Positions 4,328 to 43,966 of a stretch of 44,581 bases of DNA are shown piece by piece (position 1 is the first letter of the stretch; each line of letters begins with the position of its first letter). The stretch lies in the sequence record PZ445532.1. One strand, written 5' to 3'. This DNA is from a phage. The position numbers and the translations under genes were made by a program. The notes beneath the pieces are model-generated. The model saw nothing but the letters and a program-made list of their open reading frames with translations, did no database searches and was not told the DNA's origin.

Positions 4328-4439
4328 CCCGTCTGCGGACCCCGACGAAGATTTGATGATTGACGTGAAAAATATGGAATGCGGGGCGAAGCTAAGGGCG
4401 CAGGTGCTGGAGTTGCAGCAAATAATTAAGGGGCCATAA
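4209..4439 (+). CDS. o-spanin (Rz1-like outer-membrane lipoprotein)
   Basis: 76-aa ORF in the +1 frame relative to the i-spanin. Signal peptide with lipobox LTLSAC|GSS, proline-rich mature part. RBS AAGAGG upstream. Confidence 0.62.
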   Translation: MLRALTALIVVLTLSACGSSSVPLMPLTESALRPPCKFDNPSADPDEDLMIDVKNMECGAKLRAQVLELQQIIKGP

Positions 4440-4451
4440 TGGCCCCTTTTT
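4430..4451. terminator. bidirectional rho-independent terminator
   Basis: GGGGCC-ATAAT-GGCCCC followed by TTTTT. The reverse complement is also followed by a T-rich tract. Sits between convergent genes. Confidence 0.7.
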
Positions 4452-4453
4452 CG

Positions 4454-5218
4454 TTAGCGCGGAATGCCGCAAATCTCGTTGAGTGTTTTCACATCCAGCG
4501 CCACCGCCGTGGATTTTGGCTTGTCCGGGTATGGGATGAATTGCTCAACTTCAGGCCATGCTTTAATCAGCTTCTTGTCAGTATTGTGCAGGTCCAGCAC
4601 ACCGGTAACGGTGAGTTTGAACGCGTCATACTTAGCACGCAACTCACGGCGGGCCTGGTCGTTACGGTCCAGGCGCTTACAGAAGTCATGGTCCGCAGGG
4701 TAATCTGCGCGACCGCGTGGGAGATATATCGGCAGCGCTTTCCCGTCCTCGTCCACTTCGCACACTGACGCGAGCATAACTGTCTCGAACCCCGGAACGA
4801 TATCGCCGAGATCAGGCGCGAGCTTATTCATATATTTCTCTTCCCAGTATCCGCGATGTACGCGGTATTGGTGACCGTCACCGCTCAAGGACAAGGTGCG
4901 AACATTTCCGCCTGCGTTGATTTCGAAAGTGGCGTCGTAAACGCTGCCGATACCTTTCGGGCGGTCGGTGTTATAACTATATGTCGCCTTGTTGGTATAT
5001 ACACTGACGCCGTACATCTGCGACGGGTCATCGACGATTGCGGCAATGCGCTCTAGTAGCTTGGCGAACGTGCGAATGCCTTCCGGCATACAGTCCAGCG
5101 TAATGGCATAAGCCAGGTCGCGCGAGTCCGTCATGATTTGTTTGGCTTCGGTTGCGATTTCGTGGTCGCGCAGGATGTTAGCCAGAATCTGATTTTTAAT
5201 GTCTTTAGTCAGTCTCAT
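4454..5218 (-). CDS. hypothetical protein (second gene of antisense cassette)
   Basis: 254-aa ORF. RBS GAGGA 7 nt upstream of the ATG. No recognisable motif. Co-oriented with the DnaN-like gene. Confidence 0.6.
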   Translation of the reverse strand: MRLTKDIKNQILANILRDHEIATEAKQIMTDSRDLAYAITLDCMPEGIRTFAKLLERIAAIVDDPSQMYGVSVYTNKATYSYNTDRPKGIGSVYDATFEINAGGNVRTLSLSGDGHQYRVHRGYWEEKYMNKLAPDLGDIVPGFETVMLASVCEVDEDGKALPIYLPRGRADYPADHDFCKRLDRNDQARRELRAKYDAFKLTVTGVLDLHNTDKKLIKAWPEVEQFIPYPDKPKSTAVALDVKTLNEICGIPR

Positions 5219-5299
5219 TTTTGTGTCCTCGTTGTTGGGGCTTTCGCCCCGTTTGGTTTAGTTAAACTTGATGTTGCCGCCAATAGGGTGCTTTGTTAG

Positions 5300-5818
5300 C
5301 TACAAACGCATCGGCATGATAACAAGGAAGGCACCGCCTTTGAACAGCACACGTGTCGCCTTGTCTACTCCCTGAAATTCCAGTTTTAAGCTATCAAACT
5401 TACGGTCGAACAATTTAGCAATTTTGCAGGCGTCGGACAGGTATACCCCGGCAAACCCTATAGCCTCCACTTTAGCGCTGTCGAAAGACGTAACACGACG
5501 CCAGTCTGGGAATCTGCCGTCTATGATCTCTACGGGTATGGTACCGATTAATACGTCTTTACTATCAAAGAACGCAGCGGATGTGCCGTCTATGTTGCAG
5601 TATTCGAATTTTGTAGGTAAGCGGCCTTTAATTGCTACTATTTTACTTTCACCTTCGGGAACAACCGCGGACCCGCAGAACAAACGATGACCGTCGGTGG
5701 CCACGATGAATCCTTTCTCGTCGAAAAATACACCATTCAGATAGTACCGCACGTCATTAGTTGCGGCGCACATCATAGCGGCTTTAAGATCGGCATAGTT
5801 AACTTTAATCATTGTCAT
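5300..5818 (-). CDS. truncated beta-sliding-clamp (DnaN) homologue, domain II plus C-terminal segment
   Basis: 172 aa from MTMIKVNY (internal start of the 5300..6259 ORF, RBS GAGGAA). Contains DVRYYLNGVFF, ATDGHRL, DGRFPDWRRV and C-terminal VIMPMRL. These match the conserved E. coli DnaN blocks DVRYYLNGMLF, ATDGHRLA, DGRFPDYRRV and C-terminal VVMPMRL (recalled from memory). Confidence 0.7.
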   Translation of the reverse strand: MTMIKVNYADLKAAMMCAATNDVRYYLNGVFFDEKGFIVATDGHRLFCGSAVVPEGESKIVAIKGRLPTKFEYCNIDGTSAAFFDSKDVLIGTIPVEIIDGRFPDWRRVTSFDSAKVEAIGFAGVYLSDACKIAKLFDRKFDSLKLEFQGVDKATRVLFKGGAFLVIMPMRL

Positions 5819-5960
5819 TTCCTCATGTTGGTGTGCAACCAATATACTGCAACCAACATACGCAATGCAAGCGAATTTTGCGATTATTTTTATCACTGAT
5901 AATATTAGAGGCGTGAAGTCGAGCGGGTGGCCCGCTCTGCCACAATCCCAGGGGGATAGC

Positions 5961-11429: not shown

Positions 11430-11742
11430 AAGCGGGACAGGCGGGACGTCCCGTTTTGTCCCGCACCTCTAAAACTGCATATTTACCCACTTACATTGCA
11501 TAAATTAAAAGCGGGACAGGGTGCTGTCCCGATCTATCCCACCCTCAAAATGTGAATATCTATTCTGTTTTCGTGCATAAAGTAAGCGGGACAAAAAGCG
11601 GGACAAACAGGAGGCGGGACAAAGCGGGACAGCACCCTGTCCCCGCCAGTGCTGCCGCGGGTTTTAGCCGATCGGGACAGGCGGGACAAAGCCCAGTCTT
11701 TCAGACTAGACGGGGGTCAATGGCCCCCCTCGTCTGAGACTG
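11430..11742. repeat. non-coding module: GCGGGACA(G) repeat array, inverted repeats and 51-bp conserved hairpin element (copy A)
   Basis: At least 8 copies of GCGGGACA in a 380-bp gap, several paired with CTGTCCC as hairpins. Ends with a 51-bp sequence (11692..11742) identical to 39840..39890. Confidence 0.85.
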
Positions 11743-11810
11743 AATAAGGTTTGTTTTAAATTCGCTGATACAATAACCGACGGCAACTGCATAAAAAGGG
11801 GGACTGCATA

Positions 11811-15876: not shown

Positions 15877-16617
15877 ATGTTAACGAAGAAGGTTAAAAGC
15901 GATATCGCCGCACACGTCGCGGCCTGTCTGCCGGAAGAAGCCTGTGGCCTGGTTGTCATGGCGGGTCGCAAGCAAGTGTTCGTCCCATGTATGAACGTAT
16001 TCGAAGACCCTACCGGCGTGCGCTCACGCAAAGACGCGTTTACCATTAGCGACACAGCCTGGATGGATGCCGAGGATATGGGCGACGTCGTTCGCGTAGT
16101 CCACTCACACCCGGGTCAGCGCGAGTTAACCCCCTCACTGGGCGACGTTAACGGATGCAACGGCAGCGGCGTCGTCTGGACCATCACTAACGAATATGGC
16201 GACTTTATCGAGATAGACCCGGAAGACCCGCCGCTGGTAGGCCGCCGATTTGTTCTCGGAATTACGGATTGTTATGGCCTCGTCATGGACTGGCACAAAA
16301 AGCAGGGAGTAAATTTGCCAGACTTCCGCGTGCCGTATAACTGGTGGGAGACAGGCGAAAATCTGTATATGGATAATTGGTACGGTGCTGGCTTCAGGGA
16401 ATGCGAGGAGAATACGCCGGGGGCGATGGTTATCATGCAGATCAGCGCGCCAGTACCTAACCATGCCGGGATATTCCTTCCGGGCAACCAACTACTCCAC
16501 CATATCTACGGCAGCCTGTCGAGCGTGATACCCTTCCGGTCAGGATTTTTCCGGGACAATGTGGTTAAATGGGTACGTCATAAAGACCTACCGGGGAATA
16601 TAACAGAATGGCAATGA
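15877..16617 (+). CDS. tail assembly protein (lambda gpK-like, JAMM/MPN plus NlpC/P60)
   Basis: EEACG...HSHPGQRELTPSLGD matches the JAMM motif (E, HxH, S, D). Downstream Cys/His region DCYGLV...H is consistent with NlpC/P60. Confidence 0.75.
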   Translation: MLTKKVKSDIAAHVAACLPEEACGLVVMAGRKQVFVPCMNVFEDPTGVRSRKDAFTISDTAWMDAEDMGDVVRVVHSHPGQRELTPSLGDVNGCNGSGVVWTITNEYGDFIEIDPEDPPLVGRRFVLGITDCYGLVMDWHKKQGVNLPDFRVPYNWWETGENLYMDNWYGAGFRECEENTPGAMVIMQISAPVPNHAGIFLPGNQLLHHIYGSLSSVIPFRSGFFRDNVVKWVRHKDLPGNITEWQ

Positions 16618-21892: not shown

Positions 21893-21973
21893 GGTATCAT
21901 CTCCTATATTTGGTTGGGTTTTAGTATTGCACCGCTCAACCAAGAATGCAACCAATTTTATGAGGATTCAGCT

Positions 21974-24932: not shown

Positions 24933-24996
24933 GATGTTTTCCTTTTTAGTGGGAGGCGGTATTGCCTCCCGATGTGGTTAAGATACTGCAACCAAC

Positions 24997-25467
24997 CTAT
25001 TGGTTGCAAGTGAATTTTGCAACGTTTATTGCGTAAATTTTCGGGACTAAATCGCCGCACGCCCGACGAATTGCCGCGATGTTCTTCGGACAGTCTTCAA
25101 TGATGACCAGTTCCGATACGTCCGCATAGCAGACCATTTTGAACACAGCGCACGCCTTAAACTCTGGCGGCGGGGTATCGTCCAGCATGTGGCGCATAAA
25201 CAACCGGCCTGTAGGGAATACTTCCAGTTGTTCGGCGGTGGTGTCCCAACATTCTCGCTGCCGGTTGGTCAGATACGCGATCTCGAAGCCTTGCTCTTTG
25301 TACATGGTCAGCAGCAGCAGCATATCCATGTTAAGGTCTTCGCGGACGTGCGCCTTGTGCCACTTCGCCCAGAAGGTGGATTTAGTTTTTATACCCGGCA
25401 CCAGGTCGGCACGCGCATCGCTTGAACCGTTAATAACTCCATCCAAATCGCAAATCAGTAATTTCAT
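24997..25467 (-). CDS. HAD-superfamily hydrolase (putative phosphatase/nucleotidase)
   Basis: N-terminal LICDLDGVI matches HAD motif I (DxDG). Confidence 0.55.
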   Translation of the reverse strand: MKLLICDLDGVINGSSDARADLVPGIKTKSTFWAKWHKAHVREDLNMDMLLLLTMYKEQGFEIAYLTNRQRECWDTTAEQLEVFPTGRLFMRHMLDDTPPPEFKACAVFKMVCYADVSELVIIEDCPKNIAAIRRACGDLVPKIYAINVAKFTCNQ

Positions 25468-26599: not shown

Positions 26600-26680
26600 C
26601 GTGTCGTCTCCAGGTATTAAAAAGGGCGTCCAAACCGGACACCCTCAATATAATGCGACCAAGCCTATTATGCAACCAAA

Positions 26681-29912: not shown

Positions 29913-29952
29913 TTCTAAAATCCTCGGTAGAGCTAACCTGCTCACTATACTG

Positions 29953-30231
29953 TTAAGCGACCAATTCAGCAACCAATAAATCACAGTCGGCTATGTTGTC
30001 GATGACGCGAACGTCAGCACCACGGCGGGCCATTCGCTCATGTTCTCGTACCTGGTGCGGCTTCGGTTTGCCACCAGGGCGCTTAACTTCGACGAAAACT
30101 ATCTTGCCGTTGATGATGATAATAAGATCGGGCGCACCTGCGCGCCCCTCCCAAGCCACTTTACGGCAGAATCCGCCGACGGCTTTCACCCGTCTCATCA
30201 AGAGACTTTGAATCTTGCCTTCTGGTGTCAT
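29953..30231 (-). CDS. VRR-NUC domain nuclease
   Basis: 92 aa. GAPDLIIIINGKIVFVEVKRPGGKPKPHQ matches the VRR-NUC PD-(D/E)xK core. Confidence 0.75.
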   Translation of the reverse strand: MTPEGKIQSLLMRRVKAVGGFCRKVAWEGRAGAPDLIIIINGKIVFVEVKRPGGKPKPHQVREHERMARRGADVRVIDNIADCDLLVAELVA

Positions 30232-33807: not shown

Positions 33808-33897
33808 TTTCCAATTCCTCATTTTCACATGTATCGGGGTTATTGGAAGCCACCCCGTTCGGCTTGGTTGCTAATCTACTTGGTTGCGCCTGAGCGG

Positions 33898-34140
33898 TCA
33901 AGCATTTTCATTAAAAAGATTTCGGGTCACGTAGTTGGAGGCGTTCTCAATCCAGCTTAACGGCGGGCGATCGATGTTCTTACCCACCCAGTCGACGGCA
34001 GCTTCGCTATACCCGTTATCCAGCCAGCGGGTCGGATGGCGAATCATCCAGGCCACCATTAACACGCCTTGCACGCAATGCAGGATAAAGCCCAGCGCGC
34101 CGAGCAAAAACATCAATAAGATTGCGAATACTTTATTCAT
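33898..34140 (-). CDS. small membrane protein
   Basis: 80 aa. Hydrophobic helices AILLMFLLGALGFIL and VLMVAWMI. Confidence 0.5.
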   Translation of the reverse strand: MNKVFAILLMFLLGALGFILHCVQGVLMVAWMIRHPTRWLDNGYSEAAVDWVGKNIDRPPLSWIENASNYVTRNLFNENA

Positions 34141-36567: not shown

Positions 36568-36908
36568 GGTATATCTCCGATTGGTTAAGTTTAGGTGTCG
36601 GCAGTTAACTTCGTCGGTGGCCTTAACATAGTGCCTGGTTACGCGTTCTCCCGTTCGGGTAGTGGACCAGGTTATATAATCACGGTTGGGAATCCTGACA
36701 CTTCGATCCGGCCCCTGCGTTGCCCCTCTCCAGTTTGCGTCCTGCATCCTGTCGACGGAGTGAATAATAGATTGGTTGCAGAAGGGAGTCAACAACTAAT
36801 TTAAAAAAAAAGCGCCGAGGCAAAATGCAACGGCGCTAACCAATAAGAGACAATGAGACGGGATTTATTATTACACGCGTGCGCGCCCGTTTCAATATTC
36901 CAGAGGAG

Positions 36909-36954
36909 TTGACACCCCGCGGTTTTAGGTGTAGTTTCGTTGGTCATTAACCAA
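36909..36954 (+). promoter_or_regulatory. sigma70-like promoter with palindromic operator in front of the HTH gene
   Basis: TTGACA (36909..36914), 17-bp spacer, TAGTTT (36932..36937). Palindrome TTGGT-CATTA-ACCAA (36940..36954) just upstream of SD GAGGG. Confidence 0.45.
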
Positions 36955-36968
36955 CTGAGGGCAGGGCA

Positions 36969-37298
36969 ATGAATATCAACGACGCAATCGAAATGTTAAC
37001 GAAGACTGTTTGCAGTGAGACAAGCCGGTCATGGGCGTATACCGATGCCGTGGGGGCGGTGCTATTTGAGATTGAACGTCTGCGCAGTGTAGAAAAAGAA
37101 TTACGCGCCAGGCTGGAATTGCTCAACGGTACGGCGGCGAGCAAGCTGCAGAAGCACAATGAAGAAATGGAAGAATACAAAAAGCAGGTTATACGTTTGC
37201 GCGCCGAGGGAAAATCCTGGGCGATGATTGCCGAGTTGACTGGGATTAATCAGAGCACAGTGCGCTCCTGGGTACGCAATAATAAAACTTCTAAGTAA
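36969..37298 (+). CDS. HTH DNA-binding protein (putative transcriptional regulator)
   Basis: 109 aa. C-terminal helix-turn-helix-like KSWAMIAELTGINQSTVRSWVRN. Confidence 0.6.
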   Translation: MNINDAIEMLTKTVCSETSRSWAYTDAVGAVLFEIERLRSVEKELRARLELLNGTAASKLQKHNEEMEEYKKQVIRLRAEGKSWAMIAELTGINQSTVRSWVRNNKTSK

Positions 37299-39573: not shown

Positions 39574-39690
39574 ATTCTGCGCGCATTGGTTGCCGATATG
39601 GTAATTCCCATATCGGTGAATGATTAAATTTTGCGCGCATTGGTTGCCATTTTGAGTGTTTTTACCTGGTCGTATTGGTTGCCGTGTAGT
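39574..39690. repeat. three direct repeats of GCGCATTGGTTGCC plus a perfect 9-bp inverted repeat
   Basis: TTGGTTGCC at 39586, 39640 and 39675. The first two copies sit in a 23-bp direct repeat TAAATT[CT]TGCGCGCATTGGTTGCC. Inverted repeat CCGATATGG-TAATTC-CCATATCGG at 39593..39616. Confidence 0.8.
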
Positions 39691-39724
39691 GTAAATATAG
39701 TGAATAGTTATGCAATAAAACTGC

Positions 39725-39890
39725 ATAAAGTAAGCGGGACAGAAAGCGGGACAGACCAGGGGCGGGACAAAGCGGGACAGCACCCCTGTCCCGCCCCGGA
39801 TGACGCGGCCTGGCGAGGAGCGGGACAGCGGGACAGCACCCCAGTCTTTCAGACTAGACGGGGGTCAATGGCCCCCCTCGTCTGAGACTG
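39725..39890. repeat. non-coding module: GCGGGACA(G) repeat array and 51-bp conserved hairpin element (copy B)
   Basis: AGCGGGACAG repeated at least 6 times. Hairpin GGGACAG-CACC-CCTGTCCC. The terminal 51 bp (39840..39890) are identical to 11692..11742. Confidence 0.85.
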
Positions 39891-40105
39891 CATAAAATCC
39901 AGGATGCACGACGCACGGCAGCATGATGCAAATTGCGGTCGTCGATGAACTAGGCAACCAATGCGAGTTGCAGAATGGTGGGTGGAAAATGCAGTTTGCA
40001 GTCACAGCAGATAGCGATCGACTTTTTCATGCGCGTGATTAATATTGGTTGCATTCGCCCTGGCACACTGCTATATTGGTTGCACACCAACATGAGGACT
40101 GAACA

Positions 40106-40411
40106 ATGAAAGCATTAATCTGGAATTACACAATGGCGGTGGCGAAGCTGTACGAAGCGAAGCACACAAACGGCAACGCAGACGACGCGCGCCAGGTTGT
40201 TATCCTGGCCCAGCAGGGAATCATGAACGCGTTCGACGATATGTTTGCCAGCCTGGACGAACTGGAACCGCTGCGCGTGGCAATCTGCGAATATGCGATG
40301 GCTTTTGCCCGCGAGCGCCTGGCGTATCGCTTCGGGATCGGTGAGACGGCAGTGACAAACGTCGCTCGTATTAAAGCCCAGCGCGAACTATTCGCCCAGC
40401 TTGCAAAATAA
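40106..40411 (+). CDS. hypothetical protein
   Basis: 101-aa ORF preceded by the 27-bp leader shared with the DnaN-like gene. Confidence 0.55.
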   Translation: MKALIWNYTMAVAKLYEAKHTNGNADDARQVVILAQQGIMNAFDDMFASLDELEPLRVAICEYAMAFARERLAYRFGIGETAVTNVARIKAQRELFAQLAK

Positions 40412-40420
40412 GGGGCCAAA

Positions 40421-40690
40421 ATGGACCGCAGACGCGCAAAACGCCTTTCGTGGAGCATCCCACTGCATTGCATACGAATATGGGCTAAGAATGCGAATGA
40501 GGGCGATTCTGTGTTCTGGTGCTACCGCGATGATGTGAAGCCATTAACGCAGACTCGATACTTGCACCAGTTCGCAGCACAACATGATTTCAGGGTGCGG
40601 ACTTCCTTGCAACCAATGGGAATACGTATTACATTACGCCGGAAGCCCGCCGTTGAGCGGGTAGGCAAACACTGGAGACTGAGCAAATGA
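40421..40690 (+). CDS. hypothetical protein
   Basis: 89-aa basic ORF. Confidence 0.5.
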   Translation: MDRRRAKRLSWSIPLHCIRIWAKNANEGDSVFWCYRDDVKPLTQTRYLHQFAAQHDFRVRTSLQPMGIRITLRRKPAVERVGKHWRLSK

Positions 40691-43481: not shown

Positions 43482-43545
43482 TTGCTTGACTTGCAACCAA
43501 CTATCAGACCATACTGCTACCAATCGACGAGAGGAGTATTACACT

Positions 43546-43632
43546 ATGGCACGTAATGATATTTTGGTGTTGGCAATATGGTCCACTGCGGCATTCATTG
43601 GTATGGTTATTTGTCAGGTGATAAATGGCTGA
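43546..43632 (+). CDS. hydrophobic micropeptide (28 aa)
   Basis: MARNDILVLAIWSTAAFIGMVICQVING. Strong RBS GAGAGGAG 7 nt upstream. TGCAACCAA motif at 43492. Not in the ORF track (below 60 aa). Confidence 0.35.
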   Translation: MARNDILVLAIWSTAAFIGMVICQVING

Positions 43633-43913: not shown

Positions 43914-43940
43914 CCCTCCCAGCCCGCCGATTTGGTGGGC

Positions 43941-43966
43941 TTTTTTGTGCCTGTTATAATCCCCCT
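43941..43966 (+). terminator. rho-independent terminator
   Basis: AGCCCGCC-GATTT-GGTGGGCT (one G-U pair) followed by TTTTTT. Confidence 0.6.

What the first reader, a model, noticed from the sequence alone, without database searches (positions are those of the whole stretch)
5820..5846. Identical 27-bp leader in front of the clamp-like gene and an unrelated gene 34 kb away
TATATTGGTTGCACACCAACATGAGGA occurs on the minus strand at 5820..5846, directly upstream of the clamp-like ATG, and on the plus strand at 40072..40098, upstream of the ATG at 40106. It combines a -10-like TATATT, a palindrome TTGGT-N5-ACCAA and the SD GAGGA. The same palindrome type (TTGGT-CATTA-ACCAA, 36940..36954) lies between the promoter and SD of the HTH gene. 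This fits a small regulon controlled by one factor, possibly the HTH protein autoregulating itself. The palindrome could equally act at the RNA level, as a hairpin next to the SD.
Basis: seen in the sequence. Interest (0 to 1): 0.7.

Follow-up and report, generated by a model that had tools for sequence, protein, structure and literature searches.

The report
Shared promoter-operator of phage accessory genes
The identical 27 bases are the -10-to-ribosome-site part of two promoters in a Dhillonvirus (E. coli phage) genome, and both carry an undescribed 8-base control box, TTGGTTGC, that marks nearly all early and accessory promoters and the likely replication origin of this phage group.

Summary
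TATATTGGTTGCACACCAACATGAGGA occurs exactly twice (5820-5846 minus, 40072-40098 plus; 0 expected), and TTGGT-N5-ACCAA occurs exactly three times (0.02 expected).

The window is a near-complete Dhillonvirus genome. Each 27-mer runs from the -10 hexamer TATATT of a sigma70-type promoter (-35 TTGCAT, 17-18 nt spacer) to the Shine-Dalgarno GAGGA.

The three-site palindrome is part of something larger. TTGGTTGC is the most over-represented 8-mer in the genome: 19 copies against 1.3 expected, 15 of them in the 6% that is non-coding.

- It lies between -39 and +3 of at least nine promoters, in either orientation, and in an origin-like repeat region.
- It is 99.5% conserved across six other genomes, against 91% for its flanks.
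- The 20-bp core stays fixed while the gene behind it is swapped (at least 5 different genes at one locus, at least 3 at the other).

An RNA hairpin is unlikely: -3.4 kcal/mol, z = 0.1, and the predicted start site lies inside it.

Best reading: a DNA-level operator bound by a protein that blocks RNA polymerase. Which protein binds it is unresolved. The 109-aa HTH protein is the only candidate detected in this phage. However, Guernseyvirinae relatives carry the same box without that protein. No paper describing the box was found.

The parts
5820..5846 (-). 27-mer copy 1. It contains -10 TATATT (5846-5841), box TTGGTTGCA (5842-5834) whose last A (5834) is the predicted +1, ACCAA (5832-5828) and SD GAGGA (5824-5820).
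   Evidence: The +1 is inferred from 7-nt spacing after the -10, not mapped.
5848..5870 (-). Upstream half of the locus-1 promoter: -35 TTGCAT (5870-5865) and a second box TTGGTTGCA (5856-5848) in the 18-nt spacer, 1 nt from the -10.
   Evidence: The alignment of 18 relatives shows invariant blocks separated by a variable 7-8 nt island.
4428..5812 (-). Cassette driven by the locus-1 promoter: clamp-like gene 5300-5812 (170 aa), Nmad5 gene 4454-5218, and a bidirectional terminator hairpin at 4428-4448.
   Evidence: Pfam/PHROG results; terminator. Cargo differs among relatives.
40045..40098 (+). Locus-2 promoter. Box TTGGTTGCA (40045-40053) supplies the -35 TTGCAT (40049-40054); a 17-nt spacer follows. 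The 27-mer copy 2 (40072-40098) holds -10 at 40072-40077, box at 40076-40084, predicted +1 at A40084, ACCAA at 40086-40090 and GAGGA at 40094-40098.
40106..40411 (+). First gene of the locus-2 transcription unit (101 aa, phrog_9839, function unknown). It is replaced by other genes in relatives.
36909..36954 (+). Promoter of the HTH gene: -35 TTGACA (36909-36914), 17-nt spacer, -10 TAGTTT (36932-36937), palindrome TTGGTCATTAACCAA (36940-36954).
36969..37298 (+). 109-aa protein made of a long helix plus a C-terminal HTH (HTH_23 / Sigma70_r4_2-like). It is the candidate binder.
36764..36792 (-). Leftward early promoter TTGACT-17-TATTAT, with an inverted box (plus-strand TTGGTTGCA, 36772-36780) in its spacer.
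33864..33901 (-). Promoter TTGACC-17-TAGATT ahead of the SSB/polymerase genes. It has two inverted boxes (plus-strand 33864-33871 and 33880-33887), one in the spacer and one just after the -10.
29944..29976 (-). Promoter with box TTGGTTGC (29976-29969) supplying -35 TTGCTG, a second box TTGGTCGC (29964-29957) and -10 TATAGT (29949-29944).
   Evidence: hexamer positions are my own count.
26647..26679 (-). Promoter with a box at -35 (26679-26671), box variant TTGGTCGCA (26662-26654) next to -10 TATATT (26652-26647).
24980..25008 (-). Perfect 22-bp palindrome TGCAACCAA-CCTA-TTGGTTGCA (24987-25008) overlapping -35 TTGCAA. The minus-strand box is followed by -10 TATCTT (24985-24980).
21923..21955 (-). 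Promoter of the small leftward gene in the tail-fibre region. The box lies at -35 (21955-21948), with partial box TTGGTTGA 12 nt downstream and -10 AATACT.
   Evidence: The orthologous gene is annotated as a superinfection-exclusion protein in Teewinot and rolling.
43486..43523 (+). Promoter TTGACT-18-CATACT. An inverted box lies in the spacer (43493-43500) and variant TGCTACCAA directly after the -10 (43515-43523).
39574..40044 (+). Origin-like non-coding region after the primase-helicase gene. It holds three forward boxes CGCATTGGTTGCC (39586, 39640, 39675) and one inverted (39954), which flank an AT-rich stretch, GCGGGACAG iterons and a hairpin.
   Evidence: Teewinot has six tandem copies. 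Homologous regions exist in the outgroups. The SO-1 record annotates it as 'region B'.

Best explanation
The 27-mer is the -12 to about +15 segment of two sigma70-type promoters. Each promoter drives a self-contained, swappable accessory-gene cassette. The two copies are identical because both carry the same composite operator: an 8-9 bp box, TTGGTTGC(A), that begins inside the -10 hexamer and covers the predicted start site, followed by ACCAAC, a partial inverted box. Together they form the 15-bp palindrome.

The box is a phage-wide cis element. It lies inside the RNA-polymerase footprint (-39 to +3) of nearly all non-structural promoters, in either orientation, and in the origin-like region.

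The most likely mechanism is that a sequence-specific DNA-binding protein occupies the boxes and blocks or limits initiation. This would give coordinated negative control or timing of the early, replication and accessory genes, with the tightest control (2-3 boxes) on the accessory slots.

Shown directly:
- the repeats and their enrichment
- their positions relative to consensus hexamers
- their conservation
- the cargo swapping

Inferred:
- promoter activity and the start sites
- that a protein binds the box
- that binding is repressive

The binder is not identified. My rough split of probability is:
- the 109-aa coiled-coil HTH protein, about 0.35
- a conserved replication-module protein such as the primase-helicase, about 0.25
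- a host factor, about 0.2
- no separate factor, about 0.15
For: **Exact repeats and enrichment**
- The repeats are exact and beyond chance.
- TTGGTTGC has 19 copies against 1.3 expected and is the top enriched 8/9-mer in 7 Dhillonvirus genomes.
- 15 of 19 copies fall in the 6.3% of the window that is intergenic, P = 3e-15.

**Position**
- Boxes overlap the -35, the spacer or the -10/+1 of nine promoter-like sites, in both orientations, and never lie upstream of -39 (my hexamer counts).
- Four of these sites are 9-10/12 matches to the sigma70 consensus.

**Conservation**
- Box bases are 884/888 identical in six other genomes, against 90.8% for the flanks.
- Spacers and leaders vary while the boxes and ACCAAC stay fixed.
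- The downstream genes differ among relatives.

**Context**
- The candidate promoter of the structural operon (TGtTATAAT, 43952-43960) has no box.
- nmad5, a locus-1 cargo gene, is dispensable and reported to be toxic when cloned (PMC11846954). That fits tight control.
- The HTH is the only sequence-specific DNA-binding domain detected by Pfam among the 28 ORFs scanned (26 of them non-structural).
- Its C-terminal 65 aa are near-invariant while its N-terminus is hypervariable.
- Its own promoter carries the palindrome, or in L177 a full inverted box.
Against: - There is no transcript mapping and no binding data. All promoters and start sites are consensus predictions. The automatic scan misses the TTGCAT-type -35 (3/6 match), so those promoters rest on my own reading.
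- Serratia phage Otaku, Klebsiella phage VLCpiS11a and contig L191 have the same enriched box (12-13 copies) at promoters and next to the primase-helicase gene. They encode unrelated, mutually divergent XRE-type early regulators and no HTH homologue.
- No phage protein tracks box presence convincingly. The primase-helicase C-terminal domain is no more similar among box-bearing phages than among box-less ones.
- In 4-5 promoters the box supplies the -35 at a fixed 17-nt spacing. An activator role, or direct recognition by polymerase, is therefore not excluded.
Confidence: 0.6

Rival explanations
1. The functional unit is the 15-bp palindrome TTGGT-N5-ACCAA. It is bound as a dimer by the 109-aa HTH protein, which represses its own promoter and the two accessory-gene promoters. 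The TTGGTTGC boxes would then be a separate, older layer.
For: - The palindrome occurs exactly 3 times per genome, at the same three promoters, in six Dhillonviruses with the canonical HTH. It occurs 0 times in Otaku, VLCpiS11a and St162, which lack that protein.
- Half-site centres 10 bp apart suit a dimer. The AF2 model shows a 59-residue helix followed by an HTH.
- The site in the HTH promoter is not a full box, yet it is invariant in 17 of 18 relatives.
Against: - L177/L163 has the same HTH DNA-binding domain but no palindrome in 14 kb. Its HTH promoter carries a full inverted box instead.
- CHD5UKE2 lacks the palindrome at its HTH promoter.
- At two of the three sites the palindrome is simply a box plus the ACCAAC leader. 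That leader is older than the genus.
Confidence: 0.3
2. The boxes are origin iterons of the replication module, bound by the primase-helicase or another conserved replication protein. That protein would also repress early promoters, in the manner of SV40 large T antigen or plasmid Rep proteins.
For: - Box clusters lie next to, or inside the 3' end of, the primase-helicase gene in Dhillonvirus, Otaku, VLCpiS11a and L191.
- St162-like phages have a one-base variant, TTGGCTGC, at the homologous place.
- Copy number varies among genomes, as iterons do.
- The primase-helicase has a C-terminal region that looks like a winged helix by eye, and a Cys/His cluster.
Against: - No domain of the primase-helicase is more conserved among box-bearing phages than among box-less ones.
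- Most boxes in this window are at promoters, not at the origin-like region.
- The adjacent GCGGGACAG iterons vary by clade and are better candidates for the initiator's own sites.
Confidence: 0.2
3. A conserved host DNA-binding protein of Enterobacterales binds the box, and the phages use it to set promoter and origin activity.
For: - The same box occurs in phages of E. coli, Serratia and Klebsiella whose early regulators are unrelated.
- From memory, not tested: the promoter-type box GTTGCAT(T) resembles the CytR half-site, and ATTGGT resembles the PdhR half-site.
Against: - The invariant bases are TTGGTTGC, not the 3' part that CytR would read.
- Palindrome spacing is N5, not the N3 of PdhR.
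- No CRP sites were seen.
- St162-like phages use a variant, or almost none.
- No literature link was found.
Confidence: 0.15
4. No separate factor exists. The box is the lineage's own extended -35 / promoter consensus, read by host RNA polymerase and spread by duplication of promoter modules. The conserved ends also serve as recombination joints for cassette exchange.
For: - In the window (40045, 26672, 21948, 29969) and in VLCpiS11a (19001, 34812), the box places TTGCA(T/A) exactly 17 nt from a good -10.
- Cargo swapping occurs right behind the conserved core.
Against: - Boxes also lie in spacers, over +1, in inverted orientation and in the origin-like region, where no -10 follows at a usable distance.
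- TTGG upstream of the hexamer is as invariant as TTGC.
Confidence: 0.15
5. RNA level: the palindrome forms a hairpin beside the SD that modulates translation or stability.
For: The palindrome lies 3 nt upstream of the SD at the two identical sites.
Against: - The hairpin is only -3.0 to -3.4 kcal/mol, z = 0.1, and about half of the shuffles fold as well.
- The 5' arm overlaps the -10, so it should not be transcribed from this promoter.
- The same box works in both orientations elsewhere.
- There is no variation on which to test covariation.
Confidence: 0.03

Closest known systems
Phage P1 C1 repressor and its dispersed asymmetric operators (from memory: 17-bp sites at more than 14 places in the genome)
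   Same: One short asymmetric site is scattered over the genome. It overlaps many promoters, sometimes as paired or overlapping inverted copies, and gives coordinated control.
   Different: P1 is temperate and C1 is the immunity repressor. Here the phage is virulent, the box is 8-10 bp, it also marks an origin-like region, and the binder is unknown.
Mycobacteriophage L5/Bxb1 'stoperators' (from memory: about 24-30 asymmetric 13-bp repressor sites in short intergenic regions)
   Same: About 20 copies of an asymmetric motif are confined to intergenic DNA, highly conserved and genome-wide.
   Different: Stoperators act in one orientation relative to transcription and block elongation. Here the boxes sit in core promoters in both orientations. 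No integrase or immunity repressor homologue was noticed in the annotations of relatives.
T4 MotA boxes of middle promoters
   Same: A phage-specific motif replaces a poor -35 at fixed distance from a good -10. This is seen in 4-5 promoters here.
   Different: MotA boxes occur only near -30 and in one orientation. No MotA or AsiA homologue was detected. Many boxes here lie in the spacer or over +1.
Origin-binding initiators that also repress promoters (SV40 large T antigen; iteron-plasmid Rep proteins such as RepE/RepA; P4 alpha with its 8-bp iterons at ori and crr)
   Same: The same short site appears as direct repeats in an origin-like region next to a primase-helicase gene, and as inverted or overlapping copies in promoters.
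   Different: There is no evidence that the primase-helicase reads the box. The number of promoter sites (more than 12) far exceeds simple autoregulation.
Cro-type early regulators at the same genome position in Guernseyvirinae (annotated 'Cro/CI' or 'lambda repressor-like' in St162 and Otaku)
   Same: The Dhillonvirus HTH gene is the first gene of the rightward early operon, directly before the primase-helicase gene. The XRE/Cro-like gene occupies the same place in St162, Otaku, VLCpiS11a and L191.
   Different: The Dhillonvirus protein is not homologous: it is a long helix plus an HTH_23-type domain. The binding sites of the Cro-like proteins are unknown.

Membership tests
Sigma70-dependent bacterial promoter | -35 and -10 hexamers resembling TTGACA/TATAAT, separated by 16-18 nt | tested here: met
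   - Locus 1: TTGCAT-18-TATATT.
- Locus 2: TTGCAT-17-TATATT.
- HTH promoter: TTGACA-17-TAGTTT.

The -35 TTGCAT is only a 3/6 match, so the automatic scan does not list the first two.
Sigma70-dependent bacterial promoter | Transcription starts 5-9 nt downstream of the -10 | not testable with these tools
   No transcript data were found for any Dhillonvirus.
Operator of a dimeric HTH repressor | Inverted repeat with half-site centres about one helical turn apart, overlapping the core promoter | tested here: met
   TTGGT-N5-ACCAA has centres 10 bp apart and spans about -8/-4 to +7/+11 at the three promoters.
Operator of a dimeric HTH repressor | The site co-occurs with its binding protein across genomes | tested here: inconclusive
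   - The palindrome is present 3 times in six genomes with the HTH and absent in three without it.
- It is absent from L177, which has the same HTH domain.
- The box itself is present in phages without the HTH.
Operator of a dimeric HTH repressor | Demonstrated protein-DNA binding | not testable with these tools
   Needs EMSA or footprinting.
Dispersed asymmetric operator regulon (P1 C1 type / L5 stoperator type) | Many copies of one asymmetric site, confined to intergenic DNA and conserved | tested here: met
   There are 19 copies, 15 of them in the 6.3% intergenic DNA. They are 99.5% conserved.
Dispersed asymmetric operator regulon (P1 C1 type / L5 stoperator type) | Stoperator type only: a single orientation relative to transcription | tested here: not met
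   Boxes occur in both orientations relative to the promoter they overlap.
Replication-origin iterons | A cluster of directly repeated sites next to an AT-rich stretch and the initiator gene, with variable copy number | tested here: met
   The region 39586-39683 has 3 copies, Teewinot has 6, and homologous clusters exist in Otaku, L191 and VLCpiS11a. That this region is the origin is itself an inference.
Regulatory RNA hairpin / translational operator | A stable structure, better than shuffled sequence, contained in the transcript | tested here: not met
   The fold is -3.4 kcal/mol, z = 0.1. The 5' arm overlaps the -10.
Rfam RNA families | A match at gathering score | tested here: not met
   No match anywhere in the window.

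The most novel reading that the evidence does not exclude
The TTGGTTGC box is read by the phage replication initiator (the primase-helicase, or a partner conserved across Dhillonvirus and Guernseyvirinae). One protein would then both mark the origin and shut down about ten early and accessory promoters as it accumulates. This would be a T-antigen-like replication/transcription switch in a virulent siphovirus. The genus-specific coiled-coil HTH would add a second layer at the three palindromic sites.
Probability: 0.15. Interest if true: 0.75.

Novelty: new variant of a known kind. Interest (0 to 1): 0.55.

Why it matters
Dhillonviruses are common coliphages used in phage-therapy work and in the BASEL reference collection. 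I found no published account of their transcription programme.

The box gives a concrete, testable map. It predicts which promoters are co-regulated and where the origin probably lies. It also identifies two conserved 'expression slots' whose cargo is swapped among relatives and includes nmad5, a gene implicated in escape from the Tmn defence system.

For phage engineering, the 20-bp core is a ready-made regulated promoter module for inserting payload genes.

The same box in Guernseyvirinae phages with unrelated early regulators poses a clear question: what reads it? Pull-down of box-binding proteins from infected cells could answer that.

Tried and rejected
- **RNA hairpin.** Folded and rejected: weak, not better than shuffles, and the start site lies inside it.
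- **Rfam.** Nothing at gathering score in the window.
- **Literature.** Searches for the motif, and for Dhillonvirus or Guernseyvirinae promoters or transcriptomes, found no description. The only related item is the SO-1 GenBank note on repeat 'regions A and B'.
- **Other DNA-binding proteins.** Pfam scans of 28 ORFs (26 of them non-structural) found only the HTH.
- **HTH structure and fold search.** Only generic HTH hits came back (LuxR/GerE, resolvase/Hin, IstA). The 'Gam', 'transposase' and 'resolvase' annotations of this protein in GenBank records are not supported.
- **Recognition-helix covariation.** Impossible, because the C-terminal domain is invariant in all homologues.
- **Phyletic profiling of a phage-encoded binder.** Only a Dam-like methylase and a 110-aa HExxH protein track box presence. 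Neither is a plausible box reader.
- **Primase-helicase domain similarity against box presence.** No correlation.
- **IMG/VR scan for box pairs.** Mostly coding 27-bp repeats, so noise.
- **Sigma54, DnaA, IHF, PdhR and CytR sites.** Compared from memory. None fits the invariant bases or the spacing.

Full report
**1. Observation**

The 27-mer TATATTGGTTGCACACCAACATGAGGA is present exactly at 5820-5846 (minus) and 40072-40098 (plus). No other match exists at up to three mismatches, and none appears in 100 dinucleotide-preserving shuffles. TTGGT-N5-ACCAA occurs three times (5828, 36940, 40076) against 0.02 expected.

Two small corrections apply. The clamp-like gene starts at ATG 5812-5810 (170 aa, 5300-5812), 7 nt after GAGGA. 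The other copy shows the same 7-nt spacing before ATG 40106.

**2. Context**

The window is an essentially complete Dhillonvirus (HK578/SO-1-like E. coli siphovirus) genome, starting at the large terminase gene.

- Structural genes run rightward from 1 to about 23.7 kb.
- Replication and DNA-metabolism genes run leftward from about 36.8 to 23.8 kb.
- A rightward block starts at 36969 with the 109-aa HTH gene, followed by the primase-helicase gene, small genes and the lysis genes.

The gene after copy 1 gives a weak match to the central domain of the beta clamp, below Pfam's cut-off, and is followed by an Nmad5 gene. The gene after copy 2 is phrog_9839, of unknown function.

**3. What the 27-mer is**

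Both copies sit in the same promoter-like architecture.

- Locus 1 (minus strand): TTGCAT, 18 nt, TATATT.
- Locus 2: TTGCAT, 17 nt, TATATT.
- In both, TATATT is the first six bases of the 27-mer.

With the usual 7-nt distance, transcription would begin at the A of TTGGTTGCA (5834 and 40084). The 5' arm of the palindrome would then not be transcribed.

As RNA the hairpin is worth only -3.0 to -3.4 kcal/mol, with z = 0.1, and about half of the shuffles fold as well. I therefore treat the element as acting at the DNA level.

**4. The larger pattern**

TTGGTTGC is the most over-represented 8-mer in the window, with 19 copies against 1.3 expected. ATTGGTTGC is the top 9-mer. Fifteen of the 19 copies lie in the 6.3% of the window outside my gene map (binomial P = 3e-15).

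Read against -10-like hexamers, the boxes take a few preferred positions.

| Position | Orientation | Promoters (window coordinate of the box) |
|---|---|---|
| -39..-31, supplying TTGCAT as the -35 | forward | 40045, 26672, 21948, 29969 |
| -22..-14, next to the -10 | forward | 5849, 26654, 24988 |
| -22..-14, next to the -10 | inverted | 33880, 36772 |
| Over the start site | forward | 5835, 40076 |
| Over the start site | inverted | 33864, 43515 |

No box lies upstream of -39 (the hexamer counts are mine). Four of the promoters are 9-10/12 matches to the sigma70 consensus in the automatic scan.

The units that carry boxes are the leftward early operon and its internal promoters, the two accessory slots, a small gene annotated in relatives as a superinfection-exclusion protein, and a small cassette before the terminase genes. 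The candidate promoter of the structural operon, an extended -10 TGtTATAAT at 43952-43960 behind the terminator at 43921-43941, has no box.

Four more boxes, in a 13-bp form CGCATTGGTTGCC, flank an AT-rich stretch and GCGGGACAG iterons just after the primase-helicase gene. Teewinot has six tandem 53-bp copies there. This looks like a replication origin.

**5. Conservation**

- The box is the top enriched word in all seven Dhillonvirus genomes examined, with 18-22 copies each.
- At orthologous places, 884 of 888 box bases are identical in six other genomes, against 90.8% for the 45-nt flanks.
- At the two loci of the finding, spacers and leaders vary while the boxes and ACCAAC do not. For the IMG/VR loci, invariance of the core is by construction of the search. 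For the complete genomes it is not.
- A 32-mer query finds two places per genome in 168 phage records.

**6. Swappable cargo**

Behind the 20-bp core, relatives have at least five different first genes at locus 1: the clamp-like gene, Nmad5 directly, and three others. At locus 2 there are at least three.

Locus 1 is closed by a bidirectional terminator at 4428-4448. Both loci are therefore conserved expression slots for variable accessory genes.

A published study reports that Dhillonvirus nmad5 is dispensable, appears toxic when cloned, and that a point mutation in it lets the phage escape the Tmn defence (PMC11846954). That fits a need for tight control.

The extra 7 bp of identity in this window (ATGAGGA) is one of several leader variants found at both loci among relatives. 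It probably reflects exchange between the two repeats.

**7. Who binds the box?**

*The HTH protein.* Within this phage the HTH protein is the only candidate detected.

- It is the only Pfam-detectable sequence-specific DNA-binding domain among the 28 ORFs I scanned, 26 of them non-structural.
- The AF2 model (pLDDT 88) shows a 59-residue helix followed by a C-terminal helix-turn-helix.
- Fold search gives only generic HTH matches.
- All homologues are Dhillonvirus-like. Their C-terminal 65 residues are near-invariant while the N-terminal 45 are hypervariable. This parallels the invariance of the boxes.
- Its own promoter (TTGACA-17-TAGTTT) carries TTGGTCATTAACCAA, invariant in 17 of 18 relatives although the spacer and leader vary.

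*The outgroups.* These weaken the case for the HTH. Phages whose primase-helicase is 43-48% identical have the same gene order, but they encode an unrelated XRE/Cro-type protein at the HTH position.

- Serratia phage Otaku (12 copies), Klebsiella phage VLCpiS11a (13 copies) and contig L191 (12 copies in 14 kb) also have TTGGTTGC as a top enriched word. It occurs at promoters (for example aaatgTTGGTTGCAAt-17-TATAGT) and clustered beside the primase-helicase gene.
- None of them has an HTH homologue, even with a profile search.
- Their XRE proteins differ from one another in the recognition helix.
- VLCpiS11a has a box promoter at the position orthologous to locus 1, with leader TATAGTtaggtAACCAACaacaagAGGA.
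- St162-like phages have atgTTGGCTGCtacTTGCAAt-17-TAATAT...CCAACAGAGGAG at the position orthologous to locus 2.

So the box, and the ACCAAC...GAGGA leader, are older than the genus and older than the HTH.

*Other phage proteins.* No phage protein tracks the box convincingly. Only a Dam-like methylase and a small HExxH protein are shared by box-bearing phages and absent from St162. No domain of the primase-helicase is more similar among box-bearing phages than among box-less ones.

*The palindrome.*

- It is present exactly three times in each of six Dhillonviruses with the canonical HTH.
- It is present twice in CHD5UKE2, whose variant HTH gene has a different leader.
- It is absent from Otaku, VLCpiS11a and St162.
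- It is also absent from L177. This Dhillonvirus-like phage has the same HTH DNA-binding domain, and its HTH promoter carries a full inverted box instead.

The evidence is therefore mixed. It allows a two-layer model: an old box system with an unknown reader, plus a genus-specific HTH acting at the palindromes or boxes. It does not establish that model.

**8. Mechanism and rivals**

I commit to a DNA-level operator that a sequence-specific protein occupies to limit initiation. The reasons are that the boxes lie inside the polymerase footprint, in either orientation, often two or three per promoter. That geometry is typical of repression, not activation.

This gives coordinated negative control of early and accessory genes, with the accessory slots most heavily covered. 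Confidence is about 0.6.

An activator or -35-substitute role at the 4-5 promoters where the box supplies the -35 cannot be excluded. The rivals are:

- an HTH-only three-site regulon
- an initiator with a dual role
- a host factor
- a pure promoter consensus or recombination joint
- an RNA hairpin

They are listed with their tests in the Rival explanations section.

**9. Comparison with known systems, and novelty**

In how it works, the system resembles several known cases:

- dispersed asymmetric operators (P1 C1)
- L5 stoperators, although the orientation rule of stoperators is not met
- in part, T4 MotA boxes
- origin-binding initiators that also repress promoters

It is not a member of any of these protein families by sequence.

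I found no paper that describes the box or the 27-mer. The SO-1 GenBank record only flags repeat 'regions A and B'. I rate it a new variant of a known kind, with moderate interest (0.55).

Noticed in passing
window 39722-39895 and 11574-11747: A 176-bp segment is duplicated at 85.8% identity between the origin-like region and a non-coding stretch just before the tape-measure gene. It contains GCGGGACAG-type iterons and a hairpin (agacggggg...cccccctcgtct). The SO-1 GenBank record calls these 'region A' and 'region B'. They could be two origins, or an ori/crr-like pair as in P4.
   Followed up: partly
window 36805-36895, minus strand: A near-consensus leftward promoter (TTGAAA-17-AATAAT with TG, 36895-36867) is followed within about 25 nt by a strong hairpin plus U9 (36840-36805; -16.4 kcal/mol, z = -3.3). 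Together they predict an RNA of about 55 nt. The region is almost invariant in five genomes and has no Rfam match.
   Followed up: partly
window 36969-37298: The HTH protein has a hypervariable N-terminal 45 aa, with several unrelated versions among close relatives, joined to a near-invariant C-terminal 65 aa. This pattern suggests an arms-race or partner-switching N-terminus. GenBank records variously call the protein Gam, transposase or resolvase, and none of these names is supported.
   Followed up: partly
window 24987-25008: A perfect 22-bp palindrome, TGCAACCAA-CCTA-TTGGTTGCA, is made of two boxes facing outward. It lies between two leftward genes and is conserved in all genomes checked. 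Its half-site arrangement is the opposite of TTGGT-N5-ACCAA.
   Followed up: partly
window 43921-43960: The terminator at 43921-43941 is followed directly by a perfect extended -10 (TGtTATAAT, 43952-43960) with no -35. This is the likely box-free promoter of the terminase/structural operon.
   Followed up: no
whole window; also Otaku, St162, VLCpiS11a: Words such as ACGGCA(A/G)C, GCTGCCGT and CGCTGCCG are 13-16 times over-represented (25-31 copies) in all these phages. In the window, ACGGCA[AG]C is strand-biased at 38 against 12, mostly in the structural region. This is unexplained.
   Followed up: partly
window 16484-16491 and 40609-40616: Two boxes lie inside coding sequence, in a minor tail protein gene and in the 40421-40690 ORF. 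Both are on the antisense strand and are nonetheless conserved in all or nearly all relatives checked. They could be antisense promoters or chance coding constraint.
   Followed up: no
window 43546-43632: The first ORF behind the box-bearing promoter at 43486 encodes a 28-aa hydrophobic peptide. Relatives have a 1.1-kb phosphoesterase gene in this slot, which makes it another variable-cargo position.
   Followed up: no
window 39697-39711; L029 12719-12750; several IMG/VR loci: GAATAGTTATGCA, next to the origin-side box, is conserved between Dhillonvirus and Kagunavirus-like phages, where it is duplicated. A published PHIRE motif for phage fBC-Eco01 (tgAATAGTa-ccTATTat-T, PMC9825357) resembles it. 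That paper assigned the motif to a phage RNA polymerase.
   Followed up: no
L125 2750-3200 (unrelated high-GC viral contig): A dense array of about 12 TAATTGGTTGCATCC units, in both orientations, lies upstream of a gene with an N-terminal HTH. It contains the same 8-mer core in an unrelated virus and may be a pac or origin array. Probably coincidental.
   Followed up: no
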